From Balamuthia mandrillaris (lineage: Eukaryota): a DNA stretch of 64,000 nucleotides. Below are positions 3,040 through 63,420 of this stretch, piece by piece. A program made the position numbers and the translations under genes. Where the stretch lies: the NCBI GenBank assembly GCA_031835245.2, contig JAVKOQ020000047.1, positions 1 to 64,000 of the forward strand, written 5' to 3'. The notes beneath the pieces were generated by a model. The model was not told the DNA's origin. It searched no databases and was given only the letters and a program-made list of their open reading frames with translations. Within the stretch, counting starts at the first letter, position 1. Every line of letters begins with the position of its first letter.

Positions 3040-5562
<2,523 letters not shown>

Positions 5563-8245: not shown

Positions 8246-9900
<1,655 letters not shown>

Positions 9901-10038
9901 GTGATGGTGATGTGGCACATGGCAGGCTATAATAATAAAAGTATTGGAGATGATAGGAACTACTTTGCTTGGTGGCGAAAAATGGTGCCACAAATGTTTG
10001 GTTTATTGTGGCGGGCATGACAGGTTTGTTTGTGTTAA

Positions 10039-10760
10039 AAATACCTTCCAGGTGCCATCAACCCCGTGTTCGACCCAGTGGCGGACGCTTCGGTCTGGAA
10101 CTGGATGACAAGGGGCGCTTGAAGCGAACCTGTACACTGCACAAGGACAAACGTCAGCATCATGGCCTTGGATGCAGGGTTCGCACCTTCCTGTGTGGAT
10201 ACAGTCCTACCGAGAGAACAATACGTGAGGAAGTTTGCGCGCAATGACTTTGGCCGCATCTAGCGTCTCGGAAAGCATGCCGATGCCTTGCAGTCCAAGA
10301 TCGACCGTTCCCCTCGGAGTCGCCGCAAGAGAAAACTTCGCACTCTGCTGAAACTGCGGAGGAGGATCACCAACCGGGCCGATGATTTTCATCGCAAGAC
10401 GGCCTTGTTCATTTGCCGCCGCTACGACCACGTCATCTTCCCTTCCTTTGGCGTAAAGGGCATGACGGCCACACGAGATAGACGGAGGAGGAAGCGGTTA
10501 GGATGCTCTACTCCTGGGGTCATTACCGGTTCCGCCAGTGGTTGCTTCAAAAAGCGAGGGAGTGAGCGACCAAGGTCTACGTGCGCTCTGAGGCCTGGAC
10601 CAGCAAGACCTGCACCAGGTGCCTCCGTGTGACGCACGAGCAGCCGAAACACAACCAGCGAGAGCGGATCTTCGAGTGCGGACATAGGGACTGTGGGATA
10701 CATCTGGATCGAGATATAAATGGAGCGCGCAACATTCTTCTACGGAACCTTGTTGCGTAG
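10039..10760 (+). pseudogene. Fanzor/TnpB RuvC-zinc-finger nuclease pseudogene (5'-truncated)
   Basis: Frameshifts near 10178, 10245 and 10500. In-frame stops at 10261 (TAG) and 10563 (TGA). Terminal TAG at 10758-10760. Confidence 0.88.
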
Positions 10761-10901
10761 CGTTGCCCGATGGAGCCATATGGGGACGCGCCGATGGGAA
10801 AGTGGATGGGCGCTTCTGTAGCCCTCTAGCCCACCCCATCCTCGCATTCTCACAAGAACTTTTATTTGTGGGTTTACTCACTTGTGTGACTTTTAATCCA
10901 T
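10761..10901 (+). ncRNA. Candidate omega-RNA scaffold remnant
   Basis: Lies 3' of the Fanzor ORF. Nested stems GATGGG/CCCATC, GTGG/CCAC and GGGC/GCCC (10793-10840), plus a CTCACAA/TTGTGGG hairpin (10849-10872). Confidence 0.45.
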
Positions 10902-10995
10902 CAGGTTTGTTTGTGTGCATATGCACATAATATTTGGGTTTTGATCACCCCGCCCGCCCTGCTCGAGGAGAAAAGTGGTTGGTTGTTGTGTGGTG

Positions 10996-13900
10996 CTAGT
11001 CTTTTTTGTTTGTCTTTTTCCTTTGCTTGGCAAGGCGAGCCTGTTCCAGCTTGTTGGCTTGCCGAGGTACACCCCCACTGCCACTGCGGGTCGGTTCCTC
11101 AAATATCCAGTCGTCATCGTCTCCCCAGCCATTACCACCACCGTTGCCATCCTCCTCATCCTCATCCCCATCCCATCCCCAACCGTCGCCGCTACGGCTC
11201 CCTCCTCGCGCGGTACCGCCACTGCGGCTGGCACTGTTGTTGGCGCTGGAGGCAGAGCTAGAGGCAGTGGTGGAGGAAGTAGAAGGAAGAGAAGGAGAGG
11301 ACAGAGTATTGTCTCCCCATGAGTCAACACCATCGGTACTATCCCAGGCATCGCCATCGCCCCACCCTCCATCTTCTTCTTCTGCGGTTGGCAGGGCAAG
11401 AATGGAGGACTTGGCAGAGGAAGGCGCAGCTAGCTTCAACGTCAACGTTGTGTGTGATCTGCTTGCTAGCCGATCATCCTTCTCTTCGTCCTCCTTGCTG
11501 GACACTTTGCTCCAACTGTCCTCTTCATCTGTGTCATCATCGCTCCAGCCTCCCTCACCGTCTGCCGCCAATGAGGAGACTGCTGCATTGGGAGTTTGCG
11601 TTGGGATAGTGGGACTTATTGATCCTGCAGGTAGTGAATTATTGCTAATTGGTGGTGCGGTAGTCTTGGTGGTTGGTTTAACCGGCTCCTCTCCATAGAT
11701 CTGCTCCAATAACCAAAAGAGTTTAGGTCAGTTTTTAATGTGGAGGTATCACAAAACTCGTTTTCTTTTACCTTTTTGGACAAAGAGTCAAAAGCCCACG
11801 AAAATATTTTCTCGTGCGAGGACGTTGCTGGCTCATCTTCCGGCAGTGGAGCATCCCCTGCCTACAGGATGTGCGGAATGGGTGAATATGAGGCAAAAGA
11901 ACAAATAAGAGAGAAAAAATTCGCTACCATCTGGGAGGCCTTTTCAAGCTTATTGATGAATGTGTGAATTGCCTGTAAGGCGGTCTCTCTCACCCTCTTT
12001 TCAGGATCAACAGTTAGCACAGAGATAGAAGGTACTATCCGCTTGGCTGTATCATCCACATCGTAATAATCAACGGTAGCTGATGTTATATTAAGTCAAG
12101 AGGTAAGGTAATTGTTAGTGGAGGAAGGTAGGAGCGTTTCAAGCTGGGAGGTAATGATACCGGCAAATGCCATCAGAGCAGAGACGCGGGCAGGTGGGAA
12201 GGGATCTCTGAGAGCTCTGGAGAAGGCCACCACCAATACTTTTTTCCTCGTCTGAAAGCGTTCAATGAGAAAGAAGGTAGAACAGAAGAATAGAACAAGG
12301 CGTACGGAGTCGGAGAGGAAGCGGGAAATGCGGCCAAGACAGATGGTGGTGTTCGTGCGAATGAGTGGCTCTCTATCCATTTGTAACTTTGCAAAGTATT
12401 GCATAGCTTGTGTGTTCAGTGTTGAGGCGTTGAGCTTTCTCGTTGGTTTTGTCAATATATTCCCATTTTTTAACTAAACAAAAAAGAGAGTGATACCTTT
12501 GGAGCTAGATAAACTACAGAGCGAATGGTGAGCTCCCGCAGCTTGGGAGCCGGGTCAGAGAAACCTAACGCCACACAAGGGAAAATATTATCATTCACAA
12601 TTTGCGGAGACAGATGCTCAGCAAAGCTTTCCATGTTCTCTAACAAATTCGCTTTTAACTCCTTATCATTACCGGTGAACCATTTCACGATGCTGGAGAA
12701 TGAGAGTGAGTAGTTTGTTGGCAATCGAAACAAAAGAGATGAAAAAACATATAAAGACCTAGGGATGACCTGAGCCGCATATTCATCAGCTGATAAATGC
12801 TTTCCAATTTTTAAAAGGGATACAAGAGCACGTGCATTCGCTAAATTAACAGGACAGCCTGAGCACAAAGACCAAAAACGAGAAAAAGAAAGAAGTCTTC
12901 AAGATAGGTTACTAACCATAGCCATAGTTGATGGCCTGAAGTAAACTGGGCAATATCTTTTTGGTACATAAGTTTTGTGGGAAGGAGTCCAATAATGCTG
13001 GTAGCTCCTTGAAGAAGGCATCTTTTTGCGTGGGTTCTTTGAGAGCGATATTTTCGAGGAAGCGACAGGTGCGAACGATATTGTTATCGAAGTATTTGCA
13101 AACCAATACAGCATCCATTTCAATCCTTTTCTTTCCGTCTGAGCTGAACATTTTTTGGTAGCAAGGCACTAGTGCCTACAACAGTTATGGTGGATTGTTC
13201 CACGTTAGAATACACAAATGCGCTTGATAAAGGCGAGAGATCAAGGGCTTACTTTAGGGATGTTATTCGTATTCTGTAGCTCTTCACTGCGCTGCAATGA
13301 TCCATTAAAGAGCTCGTAAAGAAGGCAACCCACTAGCCAGCTGTCAACTGCGTGGACAGGGCCTTGTTGCAGCACAGGCCAGGCCTTCTTTCGGACCTCC
13401 GGTGGTTTATATTTGTTGTCTAGTATCTCTTCGCAATAATCCTTACAGTGTAGCTTGGTTAGCACCCTAAGAAAACCCGGAGGGAAACAAACACAACAGC
13501 ACAAAAGAGATGAAAGGGATGTTAGGTCAAAGGGACGAGGAAAAACCTTAAATGGAGTAAGAGACTGCAGGTCGGACACCAAGAGGAAACTGCCCAGTTT
13601 CCAATCGCCAGAAGCCGTCACAAAAATGGAGTTTAAGCCAACAGTGCCGTGCAGTAATTTACAGTCGGTGTTGAGAAACCGCAGAGCTTCCTACGTGAAG
13701 AAGGCGGATAAGGCGTGTGGTTAAGAAGCGAGAGAACGAACAGGGGGCGGGAGGGAGGGAGGGAGGAGGAGGAGGGAGGGAGGGAGGGAGGGAGGGAGGA
13801 GGGAGGGGGAGGGAGGGGAGGAGGGAGGGAGGGAGGGAGGGAGGGAGGGAGGGAGGGAGGGAGGGAGGGAGGGAGGGAGGGAGGAGGAGGGAGGGAGGGG

Positions 13901-14474
13901 AGGGAGGGAAAAGAGCAAAATGCCAGTCGAGTGAACCACATGGGTGAATGGTGAGAGCAGAAAGAGTACCAAAACTTGAGCAAGACCCCATGAAAGGCCG
14001 ACCTCCTTCTGAGGAGCATCTTTTTCAAGGTCAACAACAAGAGGCACAACGCACTCTGTAACAATGTAGTACTTTGTGGGGAGTTCCAGCCCGTCGAGAT
14101 AGGGCAGCAGGTTGGGGTGCCGCAACGTCTTCATCCTGCGGAACATGTTGGCAGCAGCAGTGGCATGAGGCGATACCAAGTCTGGTTTTACTTTATCAAA
14201 AATGAAGATGGAAACACGAGAGCCATCCTCCTAACACGGTCACAGAGGAAACAGCCAACAACAAGCGTCAGTTTGAGCAGCTGTTCCGAATGGGAAGGAA
14301 ACAAGGCAGTGTAGCGGAAGGGCGGTTGAATTGAGGGGGAGGGAGGAGGACGACGAGGAGGAGAAGAAGGAAGGAGAGTACTACCTTGCGTACACCCTGG
14401 TGGAGGCTCCATTGGTGGTTGGTGGAGGTGGCTTCCCCTACCTCGTATGGGAATTGTGACTGTTGTATTCCCAT
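10996..14474 (-). CDS. SCYL1: SCY1-like pseudokinase with HEAT repeats (multi-exon)
   Basis: Motifs FPYEVGE, RMKTLRHPNLL, SGDWKLG, GFSDPAPKLRELTIRS, IRTNTTICLG, FSRALRDPFPPAR and DPEKRVR, and an acidic tail with GWGD repeats. Confidence 0.9.
13741..13910. repeat. (GAGG)n tract in a SCYL1 intron
   Basis: Tandem GGGA/GAGG units. Confidence 0.9.
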
Positions 14475-29355: not shown

Positions 29356-29664
29356 GCTGAGGCACTATCACAGCTTCTTACCTGGAAAATCCATTGACAT
29401 TCTCTATCTCTCCAGCCTATCTCATTTTCTACCTCTACTCACCACCTAGCCCAACACTTTAATTGATAAAGAAGCAAGAACTTGCCTTTTAATTACAGTT
29501 AAAAGCGATAATAGAAGCTTGCCATCTTAGTATATATACTTAAAATGAGTAAACCGTAATATTGTTATCTTTTTTTATGTTTGTTTGTGCATAACTCGCT
29601 TGGTTATGTAAGTTTTTATTAGTATAGAAAAATTGTTAAGTTTGTTTGACATTACCACATGTTT

Positions 29665-29781
29665 TGTAGTAGTAGTAGTAATAAAAAGTTTATTTGCTCT
29701 GAGAGCAACACCAATCTATACATAAAAAGTAAGCCTTGTACATACATAGTGTACTCTTACTTTTCTTACTCCCTCATCCTC
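29665..29781 (-). mobile_element. Non-LTR retrotransposon 3'-end fragment with (TAC)n tail
   Basis: Reverse complement of 33852-33945; similar sequence also at ~62860-62965. Confidence 0.65.
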
Positions 29782-30883
29782 TACACATGTTTTGTATTAA
29801 TGTATAGTTAGGAAAGAAAGAAGACTTAAGAATTAGTGTTCAGGAGAGGGATAAGACACGCTATTTAACATCATTTATCTTCATTGGTTTGCTCCTTTTG
29901 CTGGAGGAAGAGCTGCTCCTTGTGTTGCTAAGAGTCAGATGAAGTACAGAAAACTTGCCTCTTTCATCCAACTATTTGCTCCAGAAAAACCATATTCAGC
30001 AATGACAAAGCAGTGTTTCAGCATCAACTAATGGAGGCCAAGGCTATAAAATGATGTTATAGTAACCAAAAGTTGTAAAAATAAAGAAGTTCTTAATTTT
30101 GATTACCTTTGTGCATCAACACAACAACACTTGCCTTTTACAAAATAATAAAATAAGAATAAAGAAAACACAAACAATAAAATAAAATAAATTTTCCTTG
30201 ATACTTCAACTTTTGCACATTGCCTGGCAAAAGTTTCTATGTAATCCTGTGTGAATTTCATTTGTAAAGGTATATTTGTCCTCCTTTATTTTCAAAGATT
30301 TGTGTTTTTAAGGCTTTTGAGATACCATAGCTTGGACCAAAAACATAAGAAAACATTTGTTCTCCTAAATGCGTTTAGCTCCCATCTTTCTCTTTGTTTT
30401 TGTCTTAAACACAGAACAAACAAAAGGAGAATCTCTTTTTGGAAAATTGAAAGGGTAAAAAATTTGTTATAAAATAATATACTAAAATCAAAAATAATTT
30501 TTTTTATTTATTTAACAAAAAAATAATGTTTTTTTCACTTTTTTCAAAAAAGAGTTAACCATCCATCACTGTGTTGATACATCTTTATACAAAAGATATA
30601 ACTTCTCATTTAGGAATAAAAGTGTAATTTTTTCCAATCAAAAAATACCAAAAAATTACACTTTGTGACATGTCAACAAATACATACAACTACATCAGTT
30701 GATAAAATAAGATTGCAGTACTTCTACTTCCAAAACAGAGAATTGGGACAAAACATGATGGCCCAACATTCACCTACAGTCACAGTGGTTATAAAGTGCA
30801 ACATAGATCTGAGAAAGAAGGAATTATGAAAAAGAGAGGCCAGAGACAAGAAAAGTAAGAAAGGAGCGAAGCAAAGCAGAGCA

Positions 30884-31145
30884 AAACAGAGCAAAGCAAA
30901 GTAGAAAGAAAAGAAATGGAGGGAAAAACAACAAAACAAAAAAAGATAAGAAGAAAAGAATGAGAAAAGGAAAAACTAATCTTTTTATCTAACATGTAAA
31001 AGGAACCCTAAAAGCACTCTTTAATAATCACACATGTTTGATAAAAAGATTAGTTTTTCCTTTTCTCATTCTTTTCTTCTTTTCTTTTTTTGTTTCGTTG
31101 TTTTTCCCTTCATTTCTTTTCTTTCTACTTTGCTTTGCTCTGTTT
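30884..31145. repeat. Long imperfect inverted repeat (~114-bp arms, 34-nt spacer)
   Basis: 30884-30997 is the near reverse complement of 31032-31145. Confidence 0.9.
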
Positions 31146-31929: not shown

Positions 31930-34900
31930 AAGGAACATTGGACAAAGCTGGAAAGGAAAGATTCTTCTATTGGGAGCTTGCATCAAGAGGAAGCAGGTCC
32001 AGAAGGACCGTCTTGGTCTGATAGCAACAGGCTTAAGAAGGAGAGCTTTAATCTTGCATAGAGGAAAAGATTGAGGGTGGGCAAAGCAGCTGGAGTGGAT
32101 AATATCAATGGGAAAATGATGAAGTATGGAGGTAAACATGTGCAAGACACAACTTGGACACTGATCAAGGCCATTGAGAACCAAGGCGTGTTCTCCAAGG
32201 AGTGATAACAAGAGGTGGTTATCCCCTTGCATAAACTATAGAGGAATTACTCTCCTATGCAACACAGCCAAGGTGTTTGAGGGAGCTATCTTGGTGCAAT
32301 TAAACATACAAGCAAGAGAGCAAGGGTGGATAAGTGATTACCAGGGCGGATTTAGAAAAGGAAGAGGAGTCATGGATCAAGTGTGGTGGTTGAAGAAATA
32401 CCTGATGAAGAGAAGCAAAGAACGTAATTATATTGCTCTGTTAGATATCAGCAAGGCATACAACATGCTTGACCATAACATACTGGCAAGGACATTGTGC
32501 AAAAGAGGAGCAGAAGAGGCAGCAGATAGCATTATTGCAGAGTGGTACTGTGGTATGACAAGTGTCATTCACATGAATGGGCAACTCTCTAAGGAATTTC
32601 TGGTAAAAAGAGGAGTTAAGCAAGGAGGAGTTTTATCTCCCTTCTTGTTCAATGTATATGTATATTGGCTTGGTTGTAAGAAAGCTATAGGTGACAGAGG
32701 AAAAGGAAAGAGGAAATAAAGCAAGGAATGTTTGCTTGTTGTTTGCAGATAATTTGGCAGTGGTGACCAGTGATCCTTTTGATCTTCAGAGAAGACTGAA
32801 TGTGATAGTGGAAGCATTGAATGCTCTGGGACTCCAGTTCAATGCCAAGAAATCAGTGGTACAAGGAAAGAAGGCTTGCAGAAAAGAGTGGAGACTAAAG
32901 GGGAAAGCTGTGAAACGTGTGAAGGAGGCCAAGTACCTGGGACTGTGGTTTGAAGAAAGTGGTGAGTGGACAACCCATGCTAAGGAGAGGATGCTCCTCC
33001 TCAGCCAGTACAAAGCCAGAGAGTTCCAATGAGCTGTCCAAAGCCACTGTTCCTATATTCTCCTCCTTTTTCTTCCTCCCTATTTCTTTGCTCTTTAGGC
33101 TTCCACAGCGGTTTGCCTTCATTCTTGGCTTGTTAGATTCAAGCTTTGCCTACCCACCAGCAGGTGAAAGCATACAGCCTGGCTCTTTTCACAATAATGT
33201 CTTCAGCAGCCTGGGCCGTCTCCAGAGTAACTCCTTGATGCTGCATGCCATTCTTCTCTCCTACTTTCCACACTTCGACTTACTTGAGCCCCAACTCAAA
33301 GATCCTCTTACAAACTTTTTCCTTCTTAAGGTCCTTATTGTTCACCACAATTGATCTACCCTCCACAGCTCCTACCTTGGAGTAGGGACTGACAAAGCCA
33401 TACTTTGGTTTTACTGTAGACCAATAGTTTGGGTCAGTTACTGTATCATTGGTCCATGTCCTCCTGTATATATATTGAAGTTATCCTGCCAACTTATCTC
33501 TTGATCTTTTGCCATTTCTTCCTTTCAGTATTCCAAGCTTAGTGCACTAGCTATAGTTACCATTGGAGGGAAATTCCTTTCTGCAGTAATCTGGTCACAC
33601 CATGGAGCAAATTCGACGACCTTTGTGTATAACTGTTGATAATGGGCACCCAGAGCAAGACCACCTTTGGTACCTTTTGCACTTCCTTTTTCCTCACCAT
33701 AAGATTATTAATCTCCTGGACATCAAGAAGAGAATCTTGGACCTGGTCAAGGAAAGTGATTATTGGAGGAGATTGGAATGCCAGGGTTGGAAAGGCTGGA
33801 ATGATAGAGGTGAATCTACTTACAACAGGACATAACAATTGGGAAGGCATTGAGGATGAGGGAGTAAGAGAAGTAAGAGTACACTACATATGTACAATGC
33901 TAACTTTTTATGTATAGGTTAGTGTTGCTCTCAGAGCAAATAACTTATACTGCTTACAACAGGAGAGGTGCTGATGGAGTCTTTCAAAAGGCTGGCCCTC
34001 TTAGTGCCTCAGCTTGAAGAGGAAATACCAGTGTTTACATGGAGAGCTGGAAAACAAAAGAGCATTGTGGACTATGTGGTAGCATGGAATGGCAAGGTAG
34101 CTGGCAATGAGTGACAAGCATGGACTGATCATCAACCTCTGGTAGTGGAGTTGAAGGATTCAGCAGATCATTGCAATGGAGTTTGGATGGAACATTGAAA
34201 GTGGAAGTCCTACTTGGAGGAAGATTGCAAGAGGAGGTTGAGGGAGTACAAACATGGATGGGTGCAAGTGTTTCTTCAAAGGAGAGGAATGGAAGGCCAT
34301 ACATTGATGAGTGGATCTGGCCATGAAGGAATGTCTTAGACTGGGGACCCTAAACAGTAATTGTTCATGAAAGCCTGGTGCTGGAAAAGTATAGGCACCT
34401 GAATACTGTCACAGTCAAGTTTCCTCCTTCTCAAAGGGCTAACCAAAAGGAGGAGGATGACAGAGGTGCAGAGGATCAGCGTAACTCAGTAGTGGATTCA
34501 CCCCACCAAGAGGAAGGGACCAGTGTTGTGCCCAAAAGGAAGATTGATTCAGACTCAGTCAGTGTGAACAACATTAAGGCAGACCAACAGTCAAGTAGCA
34601 CTGCTGTTCGATTGTATTAGCAGTGTTTCTCATGAGTGTGATAAGCTTTCTGAGGTAGGCGTACTTTCACTTACAATGATTGTATGATTCAGGGGCCTGA
34701 TTGAATTCCATAGTACCTCCTGGAGGGAGATACACTATATTAATTATAAAGATGCAACTCTGTCCCACTAGTTCCACCCAAGTTGAGTTGGGTGTTTGCT
34801 GCTTTTTCTTTTTTCTGATGTTTCCCTGAAAGCCCTCTCAAACGAAGAACCCTGCATCACCCCTTCCATAGCCACTCTTCCCTGGAGTAGCCCCTCTACC

Positions 34901-36479: not shown

Positions 36480-37400
36480 TTAAAGGTGACCTCAACCACT
36501 GGTCTACCTTCCTCCTCATCACACAATTCACCTTAAATCAGTGAATATCCCATCACTCAGACTCCAAACCCTTCAAGCTCTTCTTTGGCAAACCTCTTTC
36601 TTACCCAGACAACTACTTTAATAGTATATCCAAAATTAAAACTCCACCTGAGATCACCTCTCTCACCAAGGTCATGCTGCAAATCTTCTACCCTTCTATC
36701 TACAAAAAGGTTACTAAGTACTCCGCCAACATAGAAAAGTACTTCAACATAACAAACAAAATCATTTACTTTTCTTCTGGGGACAAGGTGCTACTGAAAA
36801 ACTCCTCAGCAAACTCTAAAACTGACCCAAATTTCTTGGTCCCTTTATCATCCTCCACTGCACTGATAACGGAGCCTACATCCTTCAGGACATCACTGGC
36901 AACATACTCCTTGACAAGGTTCCTCCAAGTGCTCTCACGCCTGTGGATCGTGACACCCGTTTTGAAGATAAGCACTATGAAGTGAAAAAGATCCTCAACC
37001 ATGATGGCCCACCTTCCAACTGCTACTACCTTGTGAAGTGGAGAGGATACCCTGACTCGAACAACTCTTGGGTTGCAGCCAAGGACTTCAGCTCTCAGTG
37101 ACCCATCTCCACCTACTGGGAGAAGAAGTACCAAGAAACGTCACAAACAGTGTTAGTTCTCTTTGGGAAGGCAGTGATGTTGGAAAACCAACAATTTATG
37201 TCATTATGACTTCCTGTTGACACTTTCCCTGGATACTCCAACTTCTCTCACCCCTTTTTATTTTCCCTTTTTCCTCATGATACACTCAAAGCACACACTT
37301 TGGTCCACACCTCTTTTCTTGTGAATAAACCTGGAGTCGCTTATGTGCTGTCACTTATGCTGTCCCTTTCTTGATCTGCAGGGTTTATCCCTCATCAACA
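36480..37400 (+). mobile_element. Chromoviral Ty3/gypsy remnant: integrase C-terminus, chromodomain, PPT and 3' LTR
   Basis: GDKVLL..FLGPF (GPY/F module) and HYEVKKILNH..YYLVKWRGYPDSNNSW. A purine tract precedes the LTR TGTTG(37178)...CAACA(37400), which contains AATAAA. Confidence 0.88.
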
Positions 37401-38899
37401 AGTAGATTGCTGAACTTGGCCTTGAAAAGAGAAGTTTCCAAATAACGGATTTCATAGTCCACTCCTGAGGATTGATGTCCATTCAGATCAGGAAAGGAAG
37501 GGAATGAGTCGAGTAAGGAGGAAGAGTTGAAGCAGAAGGAGCAAAGAGCTAAGGAAGTGAGTGAAGAAGAGAGGAGAGAATAGGCACAAAACTTTCAAGT
37601 TCTTCATTGAGGTAAAGAAGGAGTGAAATGTCTCACTATATATAACCTTTGCTGAGACAAAGTAAAACAAAAAGTAAGTCAGCAATGAATGAAAACTCAG
37701 AAATGAAACTAAAGGAGTTGTTGCATACATACCAATATGTTGTTTGTGTCATAACATTGTTGACTTGTCTCATCTATGCCCTAACTCATCACATCAACTA
37801 GCTGTTTCTCACTATTAGTATTCAGTAGAGAGATAGAGGGAGTGAGAGCAAGAGAGAGAAAAGGGGATCGCAACACAGCAGGTTTACATACAGTCACGTC
37901 AAAAAGGTATAACAAGAGGTATCTTTCTTACAGTACAATGATGAAGGGCTTTCTTTCTCATTCTCTGGCCTGGATATTTGACTTTGATTTCTTCTTGTCC
38001 TTCTTGTCTTTTTTATCATCCTTCTGCTCCTTTGAGCTTCTCATCTTCATTTGTTTCTTTTGTGTGAATAGGATGGCCTTCTTCATCAACAGGTTCAGAG
38101 CTTGCTTTTCTACATTGTTTTCAGTGGGTGCCTCTTGTGTGTTGCTAGCAAGTATAGATATTCTCTCTCTGCATCTTTAGAAAATGGCATAGCAAAGGAT
38201 TTGACGCAATCTCAGTCTGATCAATAGGATGACATCAACCAGTCAATCAACGGAATCTCTAAGTATTGTGTTACCACAGGAGAAGGGAAAAGAGGGAAAA
38301 AGTAGAGAATAACAGAATTAGAGAGAGAAACAGTACACATAAAGCAGGTCTTTCTAATAAGAGCAAACCAAGAACCACCCCAATCTTATCTCTCCTTTGT
38401 GAGCGTTATGTGAGAAAGAGGGATTGACATGACTCAAGGCTGGGTTGTGACAAGAAAATGAAGAGCAAAAATAAGCCTCTATCACTGACAGTGAGCCATG
38501 GAAGCATACTTCTTCTAACCACTGGTTTCTTTCTTGCTCCATTTGCTTGCCTTGGCAGTGTTGACTATTCATACACAGGTGATAGCCTTCCATTTCCTCA
38601 AATGACCCTATTTGTGGGTGCAATGAAAACAGAGTCATTCTACAGTTTAATTGCATCTCCTTTGTCTCTTTTCATCACTCCTGTTCCAGATCTAAAAGCA
38701 AAGTCTCCTTGTTACCTAAGGCTGTAAAAGACTTGACCTTAGCAATTTTGCAGGTTTTTCCAAATAGGTTGTTTTTGACACTTTTTCATCCATTTCCAAA
38801 AATTGCCCATAAAATTAAGTGGGGCAAAATTGAGGAGTTGCTCTGGAGGTGGCTTAGGTTGCTGAAGATATTATTGCAGAAAGAACTAGGCTGTATGCT

Positions 38900-39898: not shown

Positions 39899-40560
39899 TT
39901 GATTTTGAGACGCGAGATAGAGAGCGTGCGCCAGAGAGCTGAGAAGGGGGAACAAAGAGCTGAGGAGGAGCGCAAAAGAGCCGAGGAGGAGCACAAGAGA
40001 GCTGAGGAGGAGCGCGAGAGAGCCGACAAACTCACCCACAAAATCAACGAGGACTCCACTCTCCCCGAACGCCTTCCGCCTCTTGGCGAAAGGTCGGGTT
40101 CTTCATCAAAAGCCTCCACAAAAAAGCCATCAGCGACCTTGATTAGATCCAAATGTCCCTTTGGTAGCATTCCAGAGCTTCAAGACAGGCTAACACAACC
40201 CAAAGCTAAACCCTCCCTTATACACCAGTTGAATGCGAACCTGGGTCCACGAGGATAGTGTCAAATACTTTGTCTCCACTATCCTTCATGATGTCGCGCT
40301 GGAAGTTCGAGATTTCCACCTGGCCCCAGAAAAGGGCATTTTGGGCATAAGACCAGGTAACTGTTTGCTCTTGTTCTTCCACTTTCGCATAATAAGCTCA
40401 CATTGACTTCTTTGCATGTGAAGATCCTCAGCAGGCCTGTGGGGATTGTGGAGCTCAAGACACCTGCTCCTCCCAACCGAAATAAAAGCATATTGGACTC
40501 CAATAACCTCGCAGGGCAGGTCTATGATTACCTCAAGTGCTTACAATCATTTCACGGTCT
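39899..40560 (+). pseudogene. Fragment of a coiled-coil plus PD-(D/E)xK REase-like gene, truncated by an inverted duplication
   Basis: RAEEERKRAEEE repeats and PVGIVELKTP...GQVYDYL. The reading frame is lost at the inverted repeat. Confidence 0.5.
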
Positions 40561-40644
40561 CTTGGTAGGTGGACACAATTGCAAATGGGTGTGCAAGACC
40601 GTGAAATGATTGTAAGCACTTGAGGTAATCATAGACCTGCCCTG
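40512..40644. repeat. Perfect 49-bp inverted repeat with a 35-nt spacer
   Basis: 40512-40560 is the exact reverse complement of 40596-40644. Confidence 0.97.
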
Positions 40645-41790: not shown

Positions 41791-43340
41791 TTAACTACAC
41801 AGGGATGCACAAAGTGTTCGTGAAGATGATCTACAAACTCAGCCCAACGCTCTTCTGTGGATCCACAGCAGTACACATAGTCAAAGAAAATGATATGTTG
41901 AACATACTCGCACAGGCCTACTCCACTAGCATGTGGCATCACCTATTGAAAGAGCCAAACATGACAGAGGAAACTTAGCATATTAGAATAACCTATAGGG
42001 AAGAAAAAACAGGGAGAATGTCATCAAAAGCGAGCAGAAGATGAAAACCAATACGGTCACACCAAACTTCGTGGCCATAAGAAGAACTGCGATGATCTCA
42101 TTTAAGCTTCCTAAGTGACAGGAATCCAGCTGACAAATGCCCAAAGCCTCTGCCTGGAAGAACTGCTTGAACATGATCCTGTTCTGGCAGTGTTTGAATA
42201 TAGTCTTGTAGAGGATCCAACCTGGAGGGTTTGTTGTTCTTTGTTTGCCAGGCACTTTTTTCAGAGAAGTTGAAAGTAAAAGCTTTTTTCCAACATTTTT
42301 CTCTGAATTCCAAGTCATTACTGCTACCTCTCCTGTGTTCTTGTTGGCCATTCCTGCCCAGGTGTCCATTTGGTCTAACTTAGCACCCAAGTGAGCAGAT
42401 GCAAACTTGTACCAAGCAGCTTTTACACTACAGTGAAATGGGACTCCTTGTTCATTTAGTAAAGCTTGAGCTGAATTATCCAAGTAGAAGCAATCACAGC
42501 AAACAATTAGGTATCTAGTTGTTGGTTGCATCAAGTCAATGAGCCATGTCCACACCTTTTCCTTTGTTTCTACTGACTTGCCTTCAGAACTGGTGCCCAT
42601 GAAAAGATAAAGTCCAAAAATAAAAGACCTGCTACTTTCCTGTAAACTAACACATGCTTGTGTTATCCAATGACCAATAGGATCATTTTTCTTAGCAAGG
42701 ACCTTTTTGATGCACTTAGAAGCACCACGCCACTTTCTTTGCTTCTCATCCATTGTAACAAATTCACCAAAGCCAATATGCTTATGTAGGTTCTTTGACA
42801 ACTTGGTTCTTGCCACTTCAATAGTGATGAAGAAGTTATTTCAAATCCAAGTCCATTTATGAAGACCCAAACACCCTTCAAACTTTGAAGACAAGTGAGG
42901 AAACACAGCATTAATGACGTTGTGTTTTGTCCCAGGCTCAACAGCAAACCTCTCTGCTCTTAAGTAGATGTTGAGAGCAAAGGCCATGTAAATGTCTTTT
43001 AACTCAAGTGATTTGTTGTTGTAGACCATCTTTTCTTTGCCAAGCTCTTTTCGACAAGCAACAAGGACTTTTGGGGGAAGTAATTGCAAGAAGATATCAG
43101 CAATTGTAGCACGTCGTAACAGTTAATGGACAGCCAACTACTTACCATGGAGCAAGAATCTCTGCTGCTTACAAGGCTGCAATTCAGAGATCTTATTTTT
43201 TTACACCTGTCGTTAACTTGCCTGCTGTGCATCTACTCTCTGATTCCTTTGCTCAAGAGTGCGTGTTCTCTTTGGAACAACTGCAACAGCCAGCAGTTGT
43301 TTCTTACTCAAATCTTCACGACCCTACTTCCTCTTTAGTT
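41791..43340 (-). mobile_element. Degenerate piggyBac-like DDD transposase
   Basis: VTMDEKQRKWRG..KKNDPIGH (DE..G..KP.G motif), IVCCDCFY (D-N-F-like) and YKTIF. It has frameshifts, and no TIRs could be confirmed. Confidence 0.65.
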
Positions 43341-44851: not shown

Positions 44852-45110
44852 TGTCACAACCCGGCCTTGGGTCGTGCCAATCCCTCTCTCTCACACAACG
44901 CTCACAAAGGAGAGATAAGATTGGGGTGGTTCTTGGTTTGCTCTTATTAGAAAGACCTGCTTCGTGTGTACTGTTTCTCTCTCTAATTCTGTTATTCTCC
45001 CCTTTTTCCCCTCTTTTCCCTTCTCCCGTGGTAACGCAATACTTAGAGATTCCGTTGATTGGCTGGTTGACGTCATCCTATTGATCAGACCGAGATCGCG
45101 CCGCGTGACA
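44852..45110. mobile_element. Solo LTR (259 bp)
   Basis: Termini TGTCAC...GTGACA, flanked on both sides by GTGG within a (GTG)n tract. Confidence 0.75.
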
Positions 45111-62859: not shown

Positions 62860-63420
62860 AGTAGTAGTACCTATACTTCTAAGAAGGTTATTTGCTCTGA
62901 TTGTACCTACTTAGTGTACTCTTACTTCTGTTACACCCTTATCCTCAATGCTTTCCCAATTGTTAACTAGAACAAGTGAAAGGTGTTGAATGAGCTTTTA
63001 GACTGGCTTGGTACAATAACTATCTATACTTAGTCAATCTTTCCAAAGAATTGGACATTCTAATAGGAAGTGTTCTCTTATTTCTTCCTCTGTATTGCAT
63101 GCTAGGCACTTGCTGTTTTCTTTAGATTAAGTTTCCACTTTTTTCAATAAGCAGTCCTGTAACAACAAATAGCATTCATCAAACATTTAAGTTGGTAATC
63201 ACTAAGCTATATTGTTGTTTAACTATTAGCTGAGACCAATAACATGTGGGTAAAATCACCAACACTTATCTTAAGACTCCTCATGCACAAAATGCCATAT
63301 TCTTAAGTCTTCTTTCTTTCCCCTTTCTCTTGGTGTTGTATGTCTTTTATTATCTTGAATACACTTCTTGTCTTGTCACTAACTCTTTTATTCTTAAGGA
63401 TGGATTCAATCAACAAACAT
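62860..63420 (-). mobile_element. Degraded LINE 3' fragment
   Basis: Shares sequence with 36421-36468 and with the 3'-end element at 29665-29781 and 33831-33952. Confidence 0.65.

What the first reader, a model, noticed from the sequence alone, without database searches (positions are those of the whole stretch)
10021..10916. Fanzor fragment bracketed by a perfect 15-bp direct repeat
Seen: CAGGTTTGTTTGTGT lies at 10021-10035 and 10902-10916, enclosing an 866-bp insert with a 5'-truncated ORF and its 3' non-coding part. Established: IS607-type transposition does not generate long TSDs, whereas LINE target-primed insertion gives long TSDs and 5' truncation. Inference: either a Fanzor/omega-RNA transcript was retroposed by LINE machinery (LINE remnants are in this window), or the insert was copied into a staggered break at its own target. 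In the second case the right flank would be the guide and the left repeat a partial self-target. No poly(A) tail is seen.
Basis: partly seen in the sequence, partly recalled or inferred. Interest (0 to 1): 0.75.

Follow-up and report, generated by a model that had tools for sequence, protein, structure and literature searches.

The report
Scar of aborted Fanzor self-homing
In an amoeba genome (likely Balamuthia mandrillaris) the broken rear part of a transposon that encodes an RNA-guided nuclease sits between two copies of the same 15 bases and is missing from this site in other samples; it is likely the scar left when the nuclease cut the vacant site and the cell copied the element back only part-way, and the family's two ends look like those of an intron that would be spliced out of host genes.

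Summary
Observation confirmed, anatomy revised. The 15-mer is exact at both places. An empty site with one copy plus one extra GTTT unit exists in two other samples. The family's right end finishes in CAG at 10904. So the repeat is the insertion motif CAG plus a 12-nt duplication of the flank that would be this copy's own guide target. The insert is the decayed 3' part of an IS607-type Fanzor2 whose intact relatives are annotated in Balamuthia mandrillaris.

Best reading (0.5): Fanzor, acting in trans, cut an empty allele just past CAG, and one-sided copying from a filled allele stopped early. Main rival (0.2): LINE reverse transcription of an RNA ending in CAG; a LINE-type retrocopy with a 13-bp duplication is in this window. 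The same architecture was described, unexplained, for Chlamydomonas Fanzor1 Helitrons.

Side finding: the family reads AG|GTAAGT...CAG|, and one full copy splits a Rictor exon in frame, so it may be a spliceosomal-intron transposon. I found no such IS607/Fanzor element in the papers searched. Limits: one locus, no genome held, and 0 of 4 truncated copies of a viral relative show a duplication.

The parts
10021..10023 (+). CAG: host insertion motif (core AG), putative TAM
   Evidence: Same 3 nt as the family's right end. The family's left end follows CAG in one X12 contig end and follows a Gln codon in gene model P0005. TAM role inferred.
10024..10035 (+). 12-nt duplicated host sequence = first 12 nt of the putative protospacer
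   Evidence: Identical to 10905-10916; single in empty alleles; not the family's left end, which starts GTAAGT.
10036..10056 (+). 21-nt junction stretch: filler or decayed element
   Evidence: Not aligned to family proteins. Weak likeness to left flank 9978-9990: 2.5-5.5% of 2931 random places score as well, test chosen after seeing it.
10057..10760 (+). Broken 3' part of an IS607-type Fanzor2 ORF (RuvC-I region to zinc finger and RD)
   Evidence: 85% aa identity to P0001/P0004; about 4 frameshifts, 2 stops, a gap of about 23 codons; Pfam PF01385, PF07282.
10761..10904 (+). Right end / putative omega-RNA scaffold, ending ...ATCCATCAG; also acceptor-like, with a CTCAC branch-like motif 24 nt from the end
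   Evidence: End defined by 31 diverging contigs; near-identical to many other copies (depth); fold not better than shuffles (z -1.29); motif position.
10905..10924 (+). Right flank = putative guide of this copy
   Evidence: Joins the left flank in empty alleles. Guide role follows from Fanzor2 architecture (PMC10711439, PMC10432273 passages); not shown here.
8246..9900 (+). Upstream host gene with NUDIX_2 domain (CFIm25/NUDT21-like; name recalled), stop 9898-9900, AATAAA at 9934
   Evidence: Pfam PF13869.
10996..14230 (-). Convergent host gene (HEAT repeat; SCYL1-like by recall, not tested); the insert is likely antisense in its 3' UTR
   Evidence: HEAT E 4e-5. A contig of the likely RNA run X11 spans 10876-11000 with 0 differences.
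29656..29796 (-). Comparison case: short LINE-type retrocopy with a (TAC)n tail and a 13-bp duplication whose first 3 nt match the tail
   Evidence: 92% like 33852-33943, near RT remnants.

Best explanation
The insert is the broken 3' part of an IS607-type Fanzor2 element, ending at CAG and preceded by CAG plus a 12-nt copy of its own right flank; it is likely the scar of an aborted homing event, in which Fanzor would have cut an empty allele just past CAG and repair would have copied the element back from its right end only part-way. Steps: (1) the family inserts after (C)AG with no long duplication (right end shown; left end shown by 2 contig ends and 1 gene model). (2) A complete, already decaying copy sat at 10023|10024, so its omega-RNA guide was the right flank (inferred). 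(3) An empty homologue or excised sister presents CAG + protospacer (empty alleles shown; one sample inferred heterozygous). (4) Fanzor from intact copies cuts about 9-21 nt past the TAM (range from published Fanzor2s; inferred here). (5) The right broken end is fully homologous to the filled allele and copies about 850 nt leftward. The left end keeps CAG + 12 nt, which the template lacks, so it cannot pair and is end-joined with a short filler (inferred).
For: Right end = CAG at 10904 and target = CAG at 10021-23. Family left end is GTAAGT..., absent here. Empty alleles in X5 and X12. X2 contigs begin at 9896 and 10905, exactly the bubble expected if the empty allele (first difference 9926, last 10904) is in the same sample (inference from 31-mer contig ends). 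That surviving empty allele mismatches the guide from position 11 and has TTT, not CAG, before the full match, so it would escape cutting. No second copy of the ORF part at 96%+ in either DNA run laid (X2 flat depth 67 apart from one short conserved piece; X12 almost none), as expected if the template was the same locus. Intact relatives with DPG, E and RD motifs exist. Published Fanzor2 TAMs CCG/TAG/GGG; cuts at +9-14/+17-18 (MmeFz2), +19 (NlovFz2), +15-21 (ApmFz2). Precedent: Chlamydomonas Fanzor1 Helitrons have 7-19-bp duplications right after the target motif mainly in 5'-truncated copies, none in copies with complete 5' ends, and 1 of 200 in a Fanzor-less Helitron (PMC3627910 section 8). 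5'-truncated, right-end-intact copies also occur in giant-virus contigs, so truncation alone does not point to LINEs.
Against: One locus only; no other Balamuthia copy could be read on both sides. No full-length allele at this site was seen in the 7 runs laid (X1, X11, X14, X16 do not cover the left junction). 0 of 4 internal 5'-truncated copies of a related viral family show a flank duplication. 12 nt is at the short end of published cut sites. TAM, omega-RNA and nuclease activity are untested, and the fold is not significant. The window holds a LINE-type retrocopy with a 13-bp duplication and 3-nt end match, the geometry seen here. The extra GTTT may be plain microsatellite variation. Contigs drop rare variants, so absence of a donor is not proven.
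Confidence: 0.5

Rival explanations
1. LINE target-primed reverse transcription of an element RNA that ends exactly at CAG (such as the spliced-out, debranched intron), primed by a 3-nt CAG match at a LINE nick; this gives 5' truncation and a 15-bp duplication.
For: RT remnants in the window. A local LINE-type retrocopy has a 13-bp duplication whose first 3 nt match its tail. Intron-like ends would give an RNA ending at CAG. Strong excess of 3' ends in all 4 runs.
Against: No poly(A) and no (TAC)n tail, which both LINE-type ends seen in the window carry. No 96%+ donor elsewhere in 2 DNA runs. The template would have to be a dead copy 8-15% away from other copies, while flanking alleles differ by only 0-5%. 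A copy without a left end cannot be excised to give the empty alleles. The Chlamydomonas precedent is not explained this way.
Confidence: 0.2
2. A Fanzor-independent event after a normal insertion: a chance break in an empty allele repaired one-sidedly from the filled allele, or loss of the 5' part with filler copied from the right flank.
For: Gives the same structure and needs no active nuclease. Empty and filled alleles likely coexist. The junction may carry filler.
Against: A chance break has no reason to fall 12 nt from the motif, inside the published cut window. Filler copied from about 870 nt away and starting exactly at the element end is unlikely (inference).
Confidence: 0.15
3. Fanzor cuts its target and the cut target strand primes reverse transcription on the still-bound guide, running into the scaffold and mRNA (RNA-templated homing with a host or LINE RT).
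For: Strand geometry fits (inference); gives the same scar; RT genes are present.
Against: No known precedent (recalled; none seen). The stretch copied has no intron that I could identify, so it cannot tell RNA from DNA templates.
Confidence: 0.08
4. The left repeat is the element's own left end, or the whole thing is an assembly artefact or chance.
For: Repeats of 15+ nt occur by chance 3 times in the window; the motif is microsatellite-like.
Against: Left end reads GTAAGT. Other copies' flanks do not start with GTTT (31 of the 38 contigs in the rows shown diverge at once). Both junctions are in X2 contigs, and the right one in X1 and X11. Empty site exists.
Confidence: 0.03

Closest known systems
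Chlamydomonas CRe-1/2/3 Fanzor1 Helitron2 elements (Bao & Jurka 2013, PMC3627910)
   Same: 5'-truncated, 3'-intact Fanzor copies with a 7-19-bp duplication placed right after the normal target motif; complete copies lack it; extra bases at some 5' junctions.
   Different: Fanzor1 on a rolling-circle Helitron, explained there by one-ended replication, and by Craig 2023 (PMC10288648) tentatively by HUH + Fanzor cutting. Here it is Fanzor2 on a serine-recombinase IS607, with a segregating empty allele.
IS607-type Fanzor2 / IS607EU (ApmFz2, Acanthamoeba IS607-like)
   Same: Resolvase-type TnpA + TnpB-like ORF, DPG and shifted E motifs, dinucleotide core, right end ATC(A/G)G as in the related loci compared.
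   Different: Published eukaryotic IS607 copies show no TSDs (PMC3673617, PMC3627910 passages); this copy has a 12-nt duplication and no left end.
[quoted passage not shown]
   Same: Nuclease cuts the vacated site (TAM + guide match), and repair copies the element back.
   Different: Shown in bacteria as complete restoration (PMC10690162, PMC13565253 passages); here a eukaryote and an incomplete product, inferred from sequence only.
IStrons (IS607 + group I intron) and Introners
   Same: Element ends coincide with splice sites, so removal from RNA would restore the host message.
   Different: Here the splice sites are spliceosomal (AG|GTAAGT ... CAG|), not a ribozyme. The 2025 introner survey text has no IS607, serine recombinase or Fanzor mention. 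Splicing is not shown here.
LINE-made retrocopies (TPRT)
   Same: 5' truncation, 13-15-bp duplication, 3-nt end match.
   Different: No poly(A) or LINE tail; the end coincides with a DNA-transposon terminus and its target motif.

Membership tests
IS607-type Fanzor2 | TnpB-like RuvC + zinc finger with DPG, shifted E and RD motifs | tested here: met
   Relatives P0001/P0002/P0004 carry ALDPG, SEAWTSKTC and RD; P0005 hits ApmFz2 9b0l at E 3.9e-25. The window copy keeps E and RD but is frameshifted.
IS607-type Fanzor2 | Serine-recombinase TnpA upstream in the element | tested here: met
   PF00239 in P0002, P0004, P0005; absent from the window copy.
IS607-type Fanzor2 | Fixed right end, insertion at a shared dinucleotide, variable flanks | tested here: met
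   31 contigs diverge at 10904, flank agreement 0.4-0.65; left end after (C)AG.
IS607-type Fanzor2 | Structured omega-RNA expressed across the right end | tested here: inconclusive
   Fold z -1.29; only 9 raw RNA reads laid.
IS607-type Fanzor2 | RNA-guided cleavage, TAM and cut site | not testable with these tools
   Bench assay needed.
Homing/restoration scar | Empty allele with TAM joined to the guide match | tested here: inconclusive
   Seen allele has +GTTT; exact allele inferred in X12 from depth only.
Homing/restoration scar | Fuller donor allele at the same site | tested here: inconclusive
   Not seen in the rows shown; 4 of 7 runs laid do not cover the left junction.
Homing/restoration scar | Recurrence in other copies | tested here: inconclusive
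   Balamuthia copies could not be paired end to end; 0 of 4 in a viral relative.
LINE retrocopy (TPRT) | Long duplication and 5' truncation | tested here: met
LINE retrocopy (TPRT) | Poly(A) or LINE-type tail at the 3' end | tested here: not met
   Element end abuts the flank; local LINE-type ends carry (TAC)n.
Introner (intron-generating transposon) | GT...AG ends matching the element ends | tested here: met
   AG|GTAAGTGA in one X12 contig end and G|GTAAGTGA in another; both translate like P0005 residues 192 onward; right end CAG.
Introner (intron-generating transposon) | Exonic insertion whose removal restores the host frame | tested here: met
   1 gene model: P0005 residues 40-190 and 894-1060 align to human Rictor 642-791 and 792-971. 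No second example.
Introner (intron-generating transposon) | Spliced reads that skip the element | not tested
   No locus with an exonic copy was held as DNA; both read-laying runs went to this site.

The most novel reading that the evidence does not exclude
Balamuthia IS607-Fanzor2 elements are spliceosomal IStrons: a serine-recombinase transposon, an RNA-guided nuclease and a spliceosomal intron in one. They home between alleles in living cells; this locus is an aborted homing product with a surviving, cut-resistant empty allele; and the same process explains the unexplained 7-19-bp duplications of Chlamydomonas Fanzor Helitrons.
Probability: 0.33. Interest if true: 0.87.

Novelty: new variant of a known kind. 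Interest (0 to 1): 0.72.

Why it matters
What Fanzors do in their own eukaryotic hosts is still open: cutting of the vacated site is shown for bacterial TnpB and only proposed for Fanzor in the papers read (PMC10432273, PMC13565253 passages). A scar of the form motif + short protospacer + truncated element + guide is a readable record of such cuts. Its length distribution across a genome would give the in vivo cut site without a bench, and it offers an explanation for a 2013 puzzle in Chlamydomonas, where it can be tested. If the intron-like ends are real, this is a eukaryotic counterpart of bacterial IStrons and a new source of spliceosomal introns.

Tried and rejected
No whole genome is held, so the survey of all copies could not be run.

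Searches for more loci of the family found none: exact right-end pattern in metagenome contigs, 0; family proteins in metagenome and viral contigs, 0 confirmed. Earlier scan notes: nothing.

RNA: no RNA holder listed. Raw RNA run X16 gave 9 partial reads from about 3% of the run, none on this locus's flanks. This is no evidence on expression.

The exact 515-nt piece at depth 4 in X5 was first read as contamination. X5's contig starts at the exon edge 9764, so X5 is probably RNA and the piece may be weak transcription of a filled allele. Unproven.

'CAG 9-22 nt before a 5' junction' was dropped as evidence. It appears before 2 of 4 viral truncated copies that have no duplication, and 2 of the 5 readable Balamuthia junctions turned out to carry the left end.

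The 3' depth excess was not used as proof of truncation: subfamily divergence and short left-end/right-end derivatives also produce it.

'CAG end evolved for splicing' was rejected: related viral-collection loci end in ATCAG or ATCGG too.

Empty sites for two viral copies: none found. Records behind L006 and L002 were not held. More host-fusion gene models: none. No structure or complex job was run; it would not bear on the question.

Full report
1. Observation. The 15-mer is exact at 10021-10035 and 10902-10916 and has no third copy in the window. It lies between two convergent intron-rich genes: a NUDIX_2 gene ending at 9900 and a minus-strand HEAT-repeat gene ending at 10996 (the names NUDT21 and SCYL1 are recalled). 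The enclosed DNA hits Pfam Cas12f1-like_TNB and OrfB_IS605. Its closest proteins are NCBI 'Transposase [Balamuthia mandrillaris]' at 84-85%; 4 near-identical ones carry a resolvase-type TnpA before the TnpB domains. The window copy starts near residue 402 of 661 and has about 4 frameshifts, 2 stops and a gap of about 23 codons. No genome is held, so other copies were seen only through contigs laid on this stretch: 7 of 19 listed runs.

2. Right end and empty site. In the 23 loose-end rows shown (83 hidden), 31 contigs of other copies leave the window at 10904, 6 at 10905 and 1 at 10908, with mixed flanks. The element therefore ends ...ATCCATCAG, and the host duplication is the 12 nt after CAG. 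Runs X5 (depth 82) and X12 (53.9) join 10027 to 10905: an empty allele with one more GTTT unit and several flank differences. Depth arithmetic shows a second X12 contig running exactly to 10035, most simply an exact single-copy allele; its tail was not displayed. In X2, contigs cross both junctions with 0 differences, but they begin at 9896 and 10905. These are exactly the points expected if the empty allele, whose listed differences start at 9926 and end at 10904, is in the same sample. I infer heterozygosity. X1 and X11 hold the filled right junction.

3. Left end. Two X12 contig ends show short derivatives whose 5' part starts AG|GTAAGTGA or G|GTAAGTGA and continues T-rich. Read by hand, they match the stretch VSEISFFCFISR that gene model P0005 places between a host Gln (residue 191) and the TnpA start: 5 of 7 residues in one, a run of 4 (FCFIS less the first codon's missing base) in the other. 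So the family inserts after (C)AG and its left end is not the repeated sequence. The window copy has no left end: CAG is followed by the 12-nt duplicate, then 21 unaligned bases with only weak likeness to the left flank.

4. Mechanism. The target motif CAG sits exactly where a normal insertion would have put the left end, and the duplicate is the start of what this copy's guide would match. Fanzor2 TAMs are 3 nt ending in G, and cuts fall 9-21 nt downstream. After such a cut in an empty allele, the right end is homologous to a filled allele and can copy the element from its right end. The left end carries TAM + a short protospacer tail that the template lacks. Aborted one-sided copying plus end-joining gives this structure (inference). 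It also fits an old, dead insert (pieces 8-15% from other copies) between young alleles (0-5%), because a decayed but complete copy can be excised in trans. It fits the lack of a 96%+ sibling of the ORF part in both DNA runs laid. And it fits the fact that the empty allele inferred to share a sample with it would not be a good target, though that may be microsatellite noise.

5. Against. It is one locus. The window holds a LINE-type retrocopy at 29656-29796 with a 13-bp duplication whose first 3 nt match its (TAC)n tail, so local LINEs make the same geometry, and a spliced-out intron would supply an RNA ending at CAG. A related family in giant-virus contigs also ends in CAG. Of its 9 pattern matches, 4 distinct internal copies have a 5' boundary inside the contig and 0 of 4 show a duplication; 4 matches at contig edges and 1 duplicate were left out. 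That speaks against generality, though it also shows truncation outside a LINE-bearing nuclear context. Assembly faults are possible there, but one junction recurs in two assemblies.

6. Intron-like ends. The full element reads AG|GTAAGT ... TTTTAATCCATCAG|, with a CTCAC motif 24 nt from the end, and the four host introns checked next door start GT or GC and end AG. In P0005 the element splits Rictor: residues 40-190 and 894-1060 align to human 642-791 and 792-971, contiguous. Removal from GT to AG would restore the frame (inferred from a protein model; DNA not seen). A second family fragment is in the same model's first 43 residues. 4 of 5 readable short-copy junctions have AG|GT, G|GT or AG|GC within 30 nt. 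The ATC(A/G)G end is shared with non-spliced relatives, so the acceptor is probably inherited, not evolved for splicing. Splicing is untested; I put it at about 0.6.

7. Literature. Seen: PMC3627910 outline, passages and sections 8, 12, 15. Passages only of PMC10711439, PMC13565253, PMC10530073, PMC10432273, PMC10288648, 10.1101/2023.06.13.544871, PMC10690162, PMC3673617, PMC11832414, PMC9860276 and PMC12130899 (12 of 14 supplements searched, no Balamuthia, IS607 or Fanzor; the 2 unsearched files may bear on this). Nine searches, read as listings, showed no paper on Balamuthia Fanzors, on IS607/Fanzor introners, or reading these duplications as aborted homing. The library lacks most subscription papers and Repbase. 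The Chlamydomonas architecture is known since 2013 and unexplained there.

8. Verdict. A real, polymorphic insertion with a real 12-nt duplication after the family's own target motif. Aborted Fanzor-triggered homing 0.5; LINE copying of a CAG-ended RNA 0.2; nuclease-independent repair 0.15; guide-primed reverse transcription 0.08; artefact or chance 0.03. New variant of a known kind; interest 0.72, carried by a testable in vivo signature of Fanzor activity and by the intron-like ends.

Noticed in passing
protein P0005 (KAL6067239.1); family ends seen: The IS607-Fanzor2 family has spliceosomal-intron-like ends, and one full copy splits a Rictor exon in frame; a second fragment sits in the same gene model.
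   Followed up: partly
window 29656-29796 (-); related 33852-33943, 62860-62965: Short non-autonomous LINE-type element with a (TAC)n tail and 13-bp duplication; RT remnants at 32165-33029.
   Followed up: partly
window 44852-45100 and 38205-38452: Two 93% alike ~250-bp copies; one has TG...CA ends inside a GTG repeat, likely solo LTRs. A chromodomain-bearing remnant lies at 36826-37098.
   Followed up: no
window 30884-31145, 40512-40644: Long inverted repeats (about 260 and 130 bp, 89% and 82%), possible MITEs or hairpins.
   Followed up: no
window 41983-42840 (-): Decayed piggyBac-like DDE_Tnp_1_7 hit (E 0.003) joined to an enolase-like C-terminal hit.
   Followed up: no
L042-L049 (IMG/VR giant-virus contigs): A young (about 99% identical) IS607-Fanzor2 family ending in TAAATCAG, with at least 7 distinct right flanks and several 5'-truncated copies lacking a shared left end or a duplication.
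   Followed up: partly
L038:2955-3121 and 3849-4015: Two identical 167-bp 3'-end fragments of another TnpB/Fanzor-like element about 900 bp apart in one viral contig, both ending ATCGG(T).
   Followed up: no
window 9069-9140: The NUDIX_2 gene appears to use a GC-AG intron; its last intron is about 540 bp of CT repeats.
   Followed up: no
window 10752 (loose ends in runs X1, X2, X12): A recurring short derivative begins (C)AG|GCGGTGTC, apparently at more than one locus: a possible omega-RNA-only 'ghost' subfamily.
   Followed up: no
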